Below are positions 1-44,282 of a stretch of DNA of 64,000 bases, piece after piece. Each line of letters begins with the position of its first letter. Within the stretch, counting starts at the first letter, position 1. The stretch spans positions 992,001 through 1,056,000 of the forward strand of contig OX597836.1 in the NCBI GenBank assembly GCA_951406725.2. The letters run 5' to 3'. A program made the translations under genes and the position numbers. Source of the stretch: Octopus vulgaris. Its lineage: Eukaryota. The notes beneath the pieces were generated by a model. It had not been told where the DNA came from and ran no database searches. It saw only the letters and a list, made by a program, of their open reading frames with translations.

Positions 1-481
1 ACACACACACTCACACGGATTCTCTCCGTGCAACACACACTTTCCCAATTTCTCTCTCCCTCTTTCTTTCTCTCTCTCTCTCTCCATCTTCATCTTTCGA
101 ATATATTCATTTCCCGCCTCTTTCTCATCTCCTCCTCCTCCTCCCCTCATCAAACAGTCTCTCACTTCCGCCCTCGCCCGTCCACAGCTCTACTCTGCCT
201 TCTCCTCACATTATGTCACACTTAATCCCCTCCTAATGCTAATCTCTTTTCACTTTACTGTCGCCATCTTCTTTTCAACCAACCATTTTATCATCAGCCA
301 CACACACACGCACACACACATACACACATGGATATAAACATATGAGAACCCATGCACTCTCGCAAACACATACACACTGAGAGACATAAACACAAAAGTA
401 CCACTATTTACACAGACACACATACACACACACATACATTCGTCGTATACCGTTATTTTAGCCGTCACAGCCACCGCCCTG

Positions 482-42031: not shown

Positions 42032-43380
42032 TTATATGGTATATGTAAGCCTTATAATCCTCTAGTGTCCTCAACGCAAGAGTTTAATTTTAGGGAGGTT
42101 GCTGTTGTTTCTAGCACGTCAAATAAATGCACAGACCAACCCCATTGTTGTTGTTTGAGCTACTCATTAGTCTTGACGAAGCTGACCCCTAACCAAATAT
42201 ATCCGTGACGTCATTATTCTATTTGTCCCGAGCAGTGTGGAATGTCTAACACAACATGGTCATAGAAACTGTTCTTTGTTTTTGATAACGGAAGAAAGAC
42301 CGTAGCTGCTGTTTCTAGCATGTCGAGCGACCTTTGAGAGCCACAGCCACTGACTCGTTAAGTGGGCTTAACAGACAATATTGATTCTGGGAGGTCGAAT
42401 TACAAATGTATCTATTTGTGTGTTGAGTGAAATATACACCCGTTCATTTCATATAGATATTTGTGTAATCGTAAAGAATATCAGAATCGATTAGAAATCG
42501 ATTTATAATGATGATGGCACACCAAAACACTAAAATAGTTTATAAACCATTAACCGAAGCAGTAAACTGTTTAAATTATTTATGAACTTAGACAATATAT
42601 TACATTTGTTGTGAATGTGTATGTATGTGTCTATGTGTGTGTGTATATTTTCTGCTTTCAATTATTTAAATTCCGCCCCCGAGGAAGGAGTTTGTTTCTA
42701 AAAAAGACAGAAAAACTCCACCGTTGGAATGTAGATAACAAAAACACTCGTATTTTGAAGTTGAAAAAATTTTTGCATATTTTTGCAGTTCCACTTACTC
42801 ATTGCATATACAATGTACGAGCTTGGTGGTTGATTTCCTTTTCTGAAGACTTTAGTTCATCCAGATTGTCACTTAGGGGTTTACTCACAAAACCAAATGT
42901 GCCAATTATTATCAGTATAAACGTGAATTTATAATCTGAGTATAAAAGCTGGAGGTTTCGAAGCAGCTGTCCAGTTATTCTCCTTCTCTTTAATTTTTGG
43001 GAAATCTCCAGTAAGTCGGTACGTTCCTATACCAGTAAAACTGCTAAAATATCTTTCATTGTATCCATAGCGTACATTTCTGAACAGACATATTGAGCAT
43101 GGCTTTAAAAATTCATTTTATATTAGACTTATATCAATAAATAATATACGCGTCACAAAGTATTTTGATTTCAAATATTAAATTGAGAAATGTCAATACG
43201 CTTTTCCGAAAGTATTTGCTGATTGAAGACAAGATATAAACACCCAGGGAAGATGCATCGCACAGTTGCACTACGTAACACACGACCATACTGACAGGAA
43301 GCTTCAAAATGTCTGCTACAGACAAGCAGAGAAGTCTATGTCGCACTAACGACCGTTACATTGATTGTCATATCAAAACA

Positions 43381-43530
43381 AGTTTCAAAGGCTGTCATAG
43401 CCGGGAGTGGTAGCAGGGATAAGCTCCCACTGCCTACAAAGTGCTCCCACGGCGTGCGTCTCAAATAGCCTCTGACAGTCAAGTCCAACTCCTGGTCTTC
43501 CCGCGTCGAAACTGTTCCCACTAACAGGAG
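43381..43530 (+). ncRNA. Putative HDV-like (CPEB3-type) self-cleaving ribozyme, possibly degenerate
   Basis: P1 AGTTTC (43381-86)/GAAACT (43508-13); P2 CTCCTG (43489-94)/CAGGAG (43525-30); P3 GTC/GTC (central mismatch) around L3 TTCCCGC; GT after P1'; J4/2 CTAA with candidate catalytic C43521. Manual threading only. Confidence 0.6.
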
Positions 43531-44092
43531 AAGGGGGCAAAGGCGAGTCACTGGCGCCTTAAAACCAGTTGCTTCGGGTAGTTGGGATTCGATAGCCTTG
43601 ACTGGCAGCCGAACTAGGAGAGGGAAACTCCGATTTCAAACCTCTGCTGCCTTGCGGCAAGACCCCCTCTTCGGGAAGGCTAAGGGAGTAAACCCCGACA
43701 GAAAATCCGGAGCTGGAGCCTCTAAGGCGGCCTGACACAACACGTCATCACCGGCAACTCCTGCGACACATCTGGTACCAAGCTGTATCGACCCGTCGTT
43801 CCCTTGAGGCTGCCAGCTGCGTGGAGAGGGGGGGGATCAAACTGCATAAGCAACAGCTGATCCCTCATACAAACCTGCCCAGGCCTTGTAGCTCAACAGG
43901 AAGAGAACCAGGCGAAAGGAACAGCAGCAGCAGCAACCACAGCTCTCATCCCCTTTCTCTTGCACCAGATGTGGTAGGGACTGCCACTCGGTGATTGGTC
44001 TGCACAGCCACACCAGGAAGGGCAGATAAACCCGCCACCTTTTCCGAGCTTCATCATCGTCTCTCGAGACGGACGGATGCCGACGACGACGA
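43381..44092 (+). mobile_element. Bipartite non-autonomous RTE-clade retroelement (5' UTR fused to ORF C-terminus and 3' UTR)
   Basis: 12-bp TSD CATATCAAAACA at 43369-43380 and 44093-44104; 43892-44029 encodes RKRTRRK...FSCTRCGRDCHSVIGLHSHTRKGR*, the zinc-finger-like C-terminus typical of RTE ORFs; ends CATCGTCTCTCGAGACGGACGGATGCC(GAC)n; no RT or endonuclease coding sequence. Confidence 0.88.
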
Positions 44093-44282
44093 CATATCAA
44101 AACAGGAGATTGGTAAAGAAATGTTTGGTGCTAGTTATTCGCCATTACACGTGTTTCATTTGCTAATGGGAATTACAAAATTATACATCTAGAAGAGACA
44201 TATTAAATATCTCCTACTAAAAATTCTCCAGAGAATCAAATAATTCAATTATCATTGTTATTATCATCATAATCATCATTGC

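What the first reader, a model, noticed from the sequence alone, without database searches (positions are those of the whole stretch)
43381..43530. HDV/CPEB3-type ribozyme fold whose predicted cut site is exactly the 5' end of a TSD-flanked RTE element
Seen: the element begins right after the TSD with AGTTTC, which pairs with GAAACT at 43508-13 (P1). CTCCTG/CAGGAG form a perfect 6-bp P2. Between them lie GTC-TTCCCGC-GTC (P3/L3), GT after P1', a 5-nt linker in place of P4, and C-T-A-A immediately before P2'. The strand order P1-P2-P3-L3-P3'-P1'-J4/2-P2' is the nested double pseudoknot of HDV-like ribozymes. The J1/2 of about 100 nt is itself structured (GGCTGTCA/TGACAGTC, GCCGGGAG/CTCCCACGGC). 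Established: HDV-like ribozymes process the 5' ends of R2, L1Tc and RTE retrotransposon transcripts, and CPEB3 has L3 UUCACGU with a 1-bp P1.1. Inference: this is a minimal variant (6-bp P1, no P4, large J1/2) in a mollusc. This copy has a U-U mismatch in P3 and A rather than G at +1, so it may be decayed.
Basis: partly seen in the sequence, partly recalled or inferred. Interest (0 to 1): 0.85.

Follow-up and report, generated by a model that had tools for sequence, protein, structure and literature searches.

The report
Ribozyme-headed RTE retroposon, rebuilt each insertion
This 712-base jumping-gene remnant begins exactly at a mutated copy of a predicted hepatitis-delta-type self-cutting RNA fold, an arrangement already known, but nearly every related copy in the genome joins the element's head to its tail at a different point, so these short copies are likely made anew at each insertion rather than copied from one short master.

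Summary
The fold is there as described: one descriptor hit in the window, none in shuffles. It heads a 712-bp, TSD-flanked, non-autonomous RTE derivative (43381-44092): about 520 nt of 5' UTR joined to about 190 nt of 3' end. In 19 copies homology starts at +1/+2 (74); the catalytic C is kept in 26 of 26 aligned copies; 10 of 31 distant RTE UTRs carry HDV cores, one with the same P4-less layout and different stems. The P3 U-U is private decay; A at +1 is shared by 10 of 19 copies. RTE ribozymes, 6-bp P1, no P4 (abalone) and structured J1/2 are in print, so the ribozyme is a new member of a known kind; cleavage is untested. Less expected: 38 head-tail copies show 37 different junctions, 34 landing in one 40-nt zone, with chance-level microhomology; a ribozyme-less RTE family is mostly full-length. 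Likely recurrent template jumps onto a ribozyme-headed 5' fragment. The scan earlier noted similar chimeras in fungi, and the L3-hairpin variant (seen here in older families) in a cartilaginous fish.

The parts
43369..43380 (+). left target-site duplication (12 bp)
   Evidence: exact repeat at 44093-44104
43381..43386 (+). P1 5' strand; +1 = predicted cut site and element start
   Evidence: pairs with 43508-13; identity among 19 copies rises from 0.37-0.58 upstream to 0.95-1.0 from +2
43390..43480 (+). structured J1/2 (P1.2 helix 43390-97 with 43473-80, inner hairpins)
   Evidence: 94.6% of P1.2 cells paired; C-G to T-A change in family B
43489..43507 (+). P2 5' strand, P3, L3 (U20, C22, G25 positions), P3'; P3 has a private U-U
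43508..43530 (+). P1', P1.1' (GT), 5-nt linker in place of P4, J4/2 with predicted catalytic C43521, P2'
   Evidence: C in 26 of 26 aligned A/B/D copies; L3 position 2 and P1.1' position 2 switch together T-T to G-C in family B
43531..43905 (+). rest of the captured RTE 5' UTR, with conserved GCCCAGGC motif at 43877-43884
   Evidence: element 278-528 is 92% identical to the 5' UTR of autonomous copy L095; motif shared by families A, B, C and H
43901..43905 (+). head-tail junction of this copy (5-nt overlap, the longest of 38 junctions)
43901..44092 (+). RTE 3' end: last codons of the ORF (CxxC...HxxxH motif), stop 44027-29, 3' UTR, (GAC)n tail
   Evidence: 90-93% identical to the 3' ends of ORF-bearing copies L070, L079, L089
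44093..44104 (+). right target-site duplication

Best explanation
This is a decayed, TSD-flanked head-plus-tail copy of an RTE retrotransposon whose first 150 bases form a P4-less HDV-like fold that in the source element likely cut the RNA free at +1, and which was likely assembled during its own insertion by a reverse-transcriptase jump from a short 3' piece onto a roughly 530-nt ribozyme-headed 5' piece. Steps: (1) inferred: a host read-through transcript carries a full-length RTE and the ribozyme cuts before +1; (2) shown: copies start at +1/+2; (3) inferred: the middle of the RNA is lost, while the ribozyme-capped head (ending 10-50 nt past GCCCAGGC) and the protein-bound tail survive in the RNP; (4) inferred: target-primed reverse transcription copies 22-200 nt of tail, runs off, jumps end-to-end to the head's 3' end and copies to the ribozyme-made 5' end; (5) shown: each insertion has its own junction with no more overlap than chance. 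This copy then gained two P3 changes and probably cleaves poorly or not at all (inferred).
For: Fold unique in the window and absent from shuffles. Boundary at +1/+2 in 19 copies. Core letters kept across families A, B, D: U20 25 of 26, C22 24 of 26, G25 23 of 26, catalytic C 26 of 26, A78 25 of 26; family-level compensatory changes in P1 (T-A to C-G), P1.2 (C-G to T-A) and P1.1 (T-T to G-C). HDV core upstream of the ORF in 10 of 31 metagenomic RTEs, against 1, 1 and 4 with A, G or T at the catalytic place, 0 on the reverse strand and 0 in ORF sequence; L165 has the same L3 TT / GT / 5-nt linker / CTAA layout with different P1, P2 and P3. Junctions: 37 distinct of 38; 34 of 38 heads end 11-49 nt after the motif; overlap 0/1/2/5 nt in 18/7/7/1 and untemplated bases in 5; not different from random joins, p = 0.28. 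21 of 24 family-A loci picked by their 5' end are short head-tail copies and 0 run into the ORF, against 1 of 30 and 23 of 30 in ribozyme-less family C. Family B copy L024 has the same landing zone and an RTE tail. 4 of 25 family-C loci and family-A copy L108 start in this zone. 13 of 38 tails start 2-11 nt before a 7-bp hairpin near the stop. Precedents read: in vivo template jumps by R2 (PMC3414825); HDV fold as a barrier to 5' decay (PMC11331408).
Against: No cleavage data and no RNA evidence: only contigs were available. Formal covariation is weak: 36 of 500 shuffles reach the score, 446 of 500 the number of two-sided pairs, 6 of 500 the two-sided cells (four rows were out of register at P1). 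Family B's majority has a C-A mismatch in P2, and 3 of 9 changed pairs between A and B break pairing. Only 3 of 19 family-A copies pass the strict descriptor. +1 is A in 10 of 19. No full-length family-A copy joining ribozyme to ORF was found; the link rests on overlap (L095) and on family B (L023). The A-versus-C contrast is one family against one, and family C was sampled as the 30 best of 919 candidates near a full-length query (919 proximal against 240 distal candidates hints at unsampled short copies). The 530-nt RNA itself was not observed. This copy's own junction has a 5-nt overlap.
Confidence: 0.6

Rival explanations
1. The ribozyme works as above, but the jump is intramolecular: RTE protein holds the 5' UTR and the 3' end of one intact RNA together and the reverse transcriptase skips the looped-out middle, landing just 3' of the bound motif.
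For: Same junction pattern; the landing zone begins in a predicted single-stranded linker (unpaired probability 0.85 at motif+10..19) after a motif kept in four families; head and tail come from the same family in family A.
Against: Internal landing without homology is not the end-to-end jumping described for R2 (PMC3414825 passages); overlaps are at chance level with 5 untemplated joints; L003 repeats positions 211-356, as if two templates were used; 5'-truncated copies start in the same zone, which fits a break or block there.
Confidence: 0.22
2. The fold is an inert relic or only a protective structure; the sharp 5' end comes from a transcription start or a reverse-transcriptase stop, not from self-cleavage.
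For: No assay; weak formal covariation; no Rfam hit; 6-bp P1 and P2, one-pair P1.1 and 11 nt of J1/2 linkers would predict slow cleavage (by analogy with PMC4908430); the fold can help without activity (PMC11331408).
Against: Catalytic C in 26 of 26 copies across three families; C preferred over other bases in distant RTEs, 10 against 1, 1, 4; the boundary is the first P1 base; family C without the core has ragged 5' ends. Rfam also missed the canonical P4-bearing cores in L195 and L234.
Confidence: 0.08
3. The short copies descend from one or a few master SINE-like bipartite elements, as usually assumed for bipartite RTEs.
For: Bipartite RTE families with uniform structure are described (PMC5786205, PMC7245038); L003 and L004 share a junction.
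Against: 37 distinct junctions among 38 loci; tails of 22-200 nt (92).
Confidence: 0.05
4. Full-length copies inserted and later lost their middle by DNA-level deletion.
For: Other deletions and duplications inside the head show short homology (L007, L017); family C has ORF-internal deletions in 3 of 30 (100).
Against: Both breakpoints cluster at the ends of a 3.3-kb interval, overlap is at chance level, and copies are only about 2-6% from their majority (L003, with a duplication, 11%) yet 0 of 24 are full-length.
Confidence: 0.05

Closest known systems
HDV-like ribozymes at the 5' ends of RTE, Baggins, R2 and L1Tc elements (Ruminski 2011 and Webb 2009, not readable here; cited through PMC6765202 and PMC5786205); drz-Agam-2-1 (PMC4908430, parts 1-2 read)
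   Same: Nested double pseudoknot, cut site at the first P1 base equal to the element start, 6-7-bp P1, large helical J1/2.
   Different: No P4, 6-bp P2 (12 bp in Agam-2), one-pair P1.1; not assayed; I found no cephalopod example (search 32; 'ribozyme' absent from PMC13282606).
P4-less HDV-like ribozymes: silkmoth R2 and abalone (PMC3774820 passages); minimal and theta ribozymes (PMC10879173 passages)
   Same: P4 replaced by a short linker (5 nt in abalone, a mollusc); long J1/2 with no P4 in silkmoth R2.
   Different: RTE context; J1/2 of about 100 nt, against a short one in theta ribozymes.
CPEB3 ribozyme (bioRxiv 2022.09.22.508989 passages)
   Same: 7-nt L3 starting UUC; P1.1 of one G-C pair plus a putative U-U.
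   Different: CPEB3 has a P4/L4 arm and is an intronic host sequence; family B here has a two-pair P1.1.
Bipartite non-autonomous LINEs: RTESINE, RTE-N, Bov-A, RIME, NARTc (PMC5786205 parts 1-4; PMC7245038 passages); R2 SIDEs (PMC3414825 passages)
   Same: 5' UTR with ribozyme joined to the 3' end, ORF missing, mobilised by the parent's protein.
   Different: Those are treated as families from single deletion events; here nearly every copy has its own junction. PMC5786205 notes many Vingi-1_EE deletion derivatives, which may be the same process; I could not read the source paper.
Template-jump chimeras: U6-L1 and R2-U12/tRNA (PMC3414825 passages)
   Same: A fixed 5' RNA added to a variably short LINE 3' piece at insertion, recurrently.
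   Different: The added RNA is the element's own ribozyme-headed 5' UTR, not a cellular small RNA.

Membership tests
HDV-like ribozyme | Strand order P1-P2-P3-L3-P3'-P1'-J4/2-P2' (nested double pseudoknot) | tested here: met
HDV-like ribozyme | First P1 base is the processed 5' end | tested here: met
   identity jumps at +1/+2 in 19 copies; TSD ends at -1..+1 in L001, L002, L008, L012, L014 (11). DNA-level only.
HDV-like ribozyme | Catalytic C in J4/2 followed by N-R-A | tested here: met
   26 of 26 A/B/D copies
HDV-like ribozyme | G1-U37 wobble at the cut site | tested here: inconclusive
   this copy A-U; family A 10 A, 8 G, 1 T; majorities of B and D are G-U; in 5 of the 10 the A may come from the target
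HDV-like ribozyme | L3 U20 and G25; P1.1 with C22-G38 | tested here: met
   T-T to G-C switch in family B
HDV-like ribozyme | Intact 3-bp P3 | tested here: not met
   this copy has a central U-U; the family majority is intact, so this lowers the claim for this copy only
HDV-like ribozyme | Covariation of stems | tested here: inconclusive
   weak within the genome; three family-level compensatory changes and one P2 mismatch; wholly different stems in distant RTEs by descriptor, not by alignment
HDV-like ribozyme | Mg2+-dependent, C-dependent self-cleavage | not testable with these tools
   needs an in vitro assay
Rfam ribozyme families | Match to a curated covariance model | tested here: not met
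   no ribozyme hit at E<=10 around the finding, nor at E<=1 in 11 other loci including P4-bearing cores
RTE clade non-LTR retrotransposon | Single APE-endonuclease plus RT ORF in the parent | tested here: met
   L095 PF03372 E 1e-11; L094 and L032 RVT_1; relatives are 1020-1140-aa APE-RT proteins. The clade name is inferred from layout and recalled features; no tree with named references was built.
RTE clade non-LTR retrotransposon | This copy is autonomous | tested here: not met
   712 bp, only the last 42 codons of the ORF (2, 23, 92)
Bipartite non-autonomous RTE family (single master) | 5' UTR plus 3' end, flanked by TSD | tested here: met
Bipartite non-autonomous RTE family (single master) | One junction shared by the copies | tested here: not met
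   37 distinct of 38 (92)
SINE with small-RNA head | tRNA, 5S or 7SL-derived Pol III head | not tested
   no tRNA scan run; Rfam showed no such match and the head is RTE 5' UTR from +1

The most novel reading that the evidence does not exclude
Ribozyme-bearing RTEs throw off head-tail copies at almost every insertion that reaches the 5' end, because self-cleavage leaves a decay-resistant, roughly 530-nt head RNA in the RNP that the reverse transcriptase jumps onto. This would explain why only ribozyme-bearing LINE clades (RTE, Ingi/Vingi, R2) give bipartite elements and SINE bodies, a question left open in PMC5786205, and it would make junction diversity a genome-readable signature of the process.
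Probability: 0.35. Interest if true: 0.78.

Novelty: new variant of a known kind. Interest (0 to 1): 0.55.

Why it matters
The junction pattern matters more: it turns the origin of bipartite LINEs, a source of many SINE bodies, from a rare deletion into a frequent by-product of RNA processing and template jumping, and it can be tested in any genome by comparing RTE families with and without a 5' ribozyme. It also bears on truncation and chimera formation in retrotransposon-based gene insertion.

Tried and rejected
Rfam: no ribozyme match, also none for family C's 5' end. Pseudoknot-free folding is no better than shuffles (z -0.46; z -0.27). A nucleotide profile of the genome's families found 1 of 80 metagenomic loci, so a descriptor was used; its first versions found 2 and 4 of 31 because J1/2 was capped. 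49 of the 80 loci were left out for lacking an N-terminal match with 600 nt upstream. RNA evidence: no RNA holder listed; contigs cannot show cut sites. The first junction script mis-called several joints and was replaced; L075 and L082 (segmental duplicates of L069) and L264 (not a head-tail copy) were left out of the 38. A second ribozyme or a splice signal at the landing zone: RNAalifold on 8 distal UTRs showed conserved hairpins but no ribozyme core that I could recognise; the spread of ends argues against a splice site. Subfamilies by +1 base: not resolved; the apparent marker at positions 34-35 looks like CpG decay. Direction of L3-hairpin gain or loss: tree unresolved. A pattern search for more hairpin copies gave only the 2 known loci. 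No host gene identified near the element (3 nearby ORFs without Pfam match). Ruminski 2011, Webb 2009 and Webb and Luptak 2011 were not held, so their figures and supplements, which may list mollusc RTE ribozymes or L3 inserts, were not seen. Not-in-print claims rest on searches of an open-access library; Repbase reports and subscription papers were not searched.

Full report
1. Observation. A descriptor for the HDV topology, written after seeing the finding and allowing one P3 mismatch, hits only this place on both strands of the window; 60 dinucleotide shuffles of the window gave 0 hits and 0 of 5000 shuffles of the element gave any. Rfam has no ribozyme match here, but it also missed canonical P4-bearing cores in other RTEs, and ordinary folding cannot see pseudoknots.

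2. What the element is. A search of the genome with the first 180 nt gave 39 matches (a lower bound); 30 were fetched: 24 close copies (family A) and 6 at 77-79% (family B). The last 190 nt match the 3' ends of ORF-bearing copies and encode a CxxC...HxxxH motif. Copy L095 carries element positions 278-528 in its 5' UTR, then an APE endonuclease and RT frames, then the same 3' end. Family B copy L023 runs from the ribozyme into an APE-RT frame, and L029 into an RT frame. So the window element is the head of an RTE-type 5' UTR joined to its tail. The RTE label is inferred from the single APE-RT layout and recalled clade features. The host is probably an octopus (inferred from the 2.8-Gb genome and its repeats).

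3. The ribozyme across copies. In the 19 family-A copies that reach the start, identity is 0.37-0.58 upstream and 0.95-1.0 from +2; +1 is A in 10, G in 8, T in 1. In 5 of the 10 the A can be read as part of the target duplication, and families B and D have G-U by majority, so G is probably the older base. Family copies have GCC/GGC in P3 and CTGA in J4/2; this copy's T43496, T43506 and A43523 are private. 3 of 19 family-A copies pass the strict descriptor, 4 more with one P3 mismatch, as expected for neutral decay. Across families A, B and D the catalytic C is kept in 26 of 26 rows; P1 pair 5 changes T-A to C-G, a P1.2 pair C-G to T-A, and the second P1.1 pair T-T to G-C; against this, family B has a C-A mismatch in P2 and 3 of 9 changed pairs between A and B break pairing. 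The formal count on 28 rows is weak: 88.4% of cells paired (35-55% when slid), but 36 of 500 shuffles reach the covariation score; four rows were out of register at P1. Outside this genome, 31 of 80 metagenomic RTE loci had enough 5' sequence; 10 of 31 hold an HDV core, 5 with a perfect P1, against 1, 1 and 4 when the catalytic base is set to A, G or T, and 0 on the reverse strand or in ORF sequence. L165, the best-scoring of these loci, has the same P4-less core (L3 starting TT, GT, 5-nt linker, CTAA) with different P1, P2 and P3. Family C, an abundant RTE at 72-74% in the distal UTR, lacks the core (1 of 30 loose hits, in a microsatellite) and its 5' boundary fades over about 40 nt.

4. The junctions. 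Family-A short copies do not share a deletion. In 38 loci (two segmental duplicates and one non-chimeric locus left out) there are 37 distinct junctions; 34 heads end 11-49 nt after a GCCCAGGC motif (43877-43884 here; offsets good to one base), the other four at 91-288; tails are 22-200 nt and 13 start 2-11 nt before a 7-bp hairpin next to the stop codon. Overlap is 0, 1, 2 and 5 nt in 18, 7, 7 and 1 cases, with untemplated bases in 5; random joins give 55, 26, 12 and 7%, p = 0.28. This copy is the 5-nt case. Among the 24 family-A loci picked only by their 5' end, 21 are short head-tail copies (20 of 21 in the zone), 3 break off and 0 run into the ORF; among 30 family-C loci, 23 run at least 1.3 kb into the ORF, 1 is a short head-tail copy, 3 have ORF-internal deletions and 3 break off. 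The family-C sample is the top 30 of 919 candidates and may favour one young subfamily. Family B copy L024 lands in the same zone and continues with an RTE tail (13 of 19 other loci with that tail have RTE coding sequence just upstream). 4 of 25 family-C loci and family-A copy L108 begin in the zone, whose first part is predicted single-stranded.

5. Mechanism. Shown: fold, boundary, TSD, head-tail structure, junction pattern. From established work: such ribozymes free elements from co-transcripts (PMC6765202 passages; PMC3414825), R2 reverse transcriptase jumps onto other RNAs in vivo (PMC3414825 passages), and an HDV fold shields a template's 5' end (PMC11331408 passages). Inferred: the source RTE cut itself at +1; the middle of its RNA was often lost; the enzyme primed on the tail, ran off, and jumped to the 3' end of the surviving head. 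My odds: source fold was an active ribozyme about 0.88; this copy impaired about 0.75; junctions made at insertion about 0.85; two separate fragments rather than a loop about 0.7 of that. Rivals are intramolecular skipping, an inert fold, a single master, and later DNA deletion.

6. Comparison with print. Papers seen: PMC4908430 (parts 1-2 of 4), PMC5786205 (parts 1-4 of 5), and passages of PMC6765202, PMC3774820, PMC4035085, PMC10879173, PMC3414825, PMC11331408, PMC7245038, PMC13282606, PMC4758252, PMC6962438, bioRxiv 2022.09.22.508989 and 2022.11.04.512097; no supplements. P1 of 6 or 7 bp and a helical J1/2 are described; a silkmoth R2 ribozyme lacks P4, and an abalone one has 5 nt in its place; CPEB3's P1.1 is one G-C plus a putative U-U. 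Bipartite RTEs are common, and why only some clades make them is left open. I found no cephalopod RTE ribozyme, no L3 insert and no per-copy junction analysis in this library; three key papers were not held, and many Vingi deletion derivatives are mentioned in PMC5786205. Earlier notes of this scan report ribozyme-headed RNAs fused to varied LINE pieces in fungi and L3 hairpins in a cartilaginous fish; they are unchecked leads, and the fungal notes prompted my closer look at the junctions.

7. Verdict. Observation confirmed; interpretation supported; the ribozyme is a new member of a known kind and this copy is probably impaired. The recurrent head-tail assembly is the part worth following: a variant of known template jumping that makes an open question testable. 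Interest 0.55.

Noticed in passing
L135-L138, L153 (family D); L157, L099 (E); L101, L103, L161 (F); L102; metagenomic L200:193-218: Older RTE families carry the same core with a 10-20-nt insert, mostly a 5-7-bp hairpin of differing sequence, between L3 and P3'; families A and B lack it. Gain or loss not resolved.
   Followed up: partly
L116:1138-1330 and L277-L306 (family C): An abundant young RTE family without HDV core; many copies share AT-rich or triplet-repeat 5' extensions. Its first 60 nt could form a small H-type pseudoknot (TCACT with AGTGA, CAGGG with CCCTG), read by eye only.
   Followed up: partly
L095:1806-2070; L023:2030-2300; L116:1470-1730: The distal 5' UTR (absent from short copies) is conserved across four families, starts with a CTGGAG/CTCCAG hairpin and holds several stems; the open frame begins upstream of its first Met. 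Possible translation-initiation element.
   Followed up: partly
L003, L007, L017, L028: Extra duplications or deletions inside the head, some with short homology, giving three-part copies.
   Followed up: partly
window:43330-43410: A contig in run X16 spans the left junction with no difference, so this insertion is also present in that sample.
   Followed up: no
window:46468-47111 (+): Broken DDE transposase remnant (PF13358, E 5e-13), probably Tc1/mariner type.
   Followed up: partly
window:45230-45496 (-): Fragment resembling the C-terminal endonuclease end of another LINE (similar to a frame in L019:618+); no Pfam match.
   Followed up: no
L165, L166, L195, L200, L207, L214, L223, L230, L234, L241: Ten HDV-like cores upstream of metagenomic RTE ORFs, most with P4, none matched by Rfam where tested.
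   Followed up: partly
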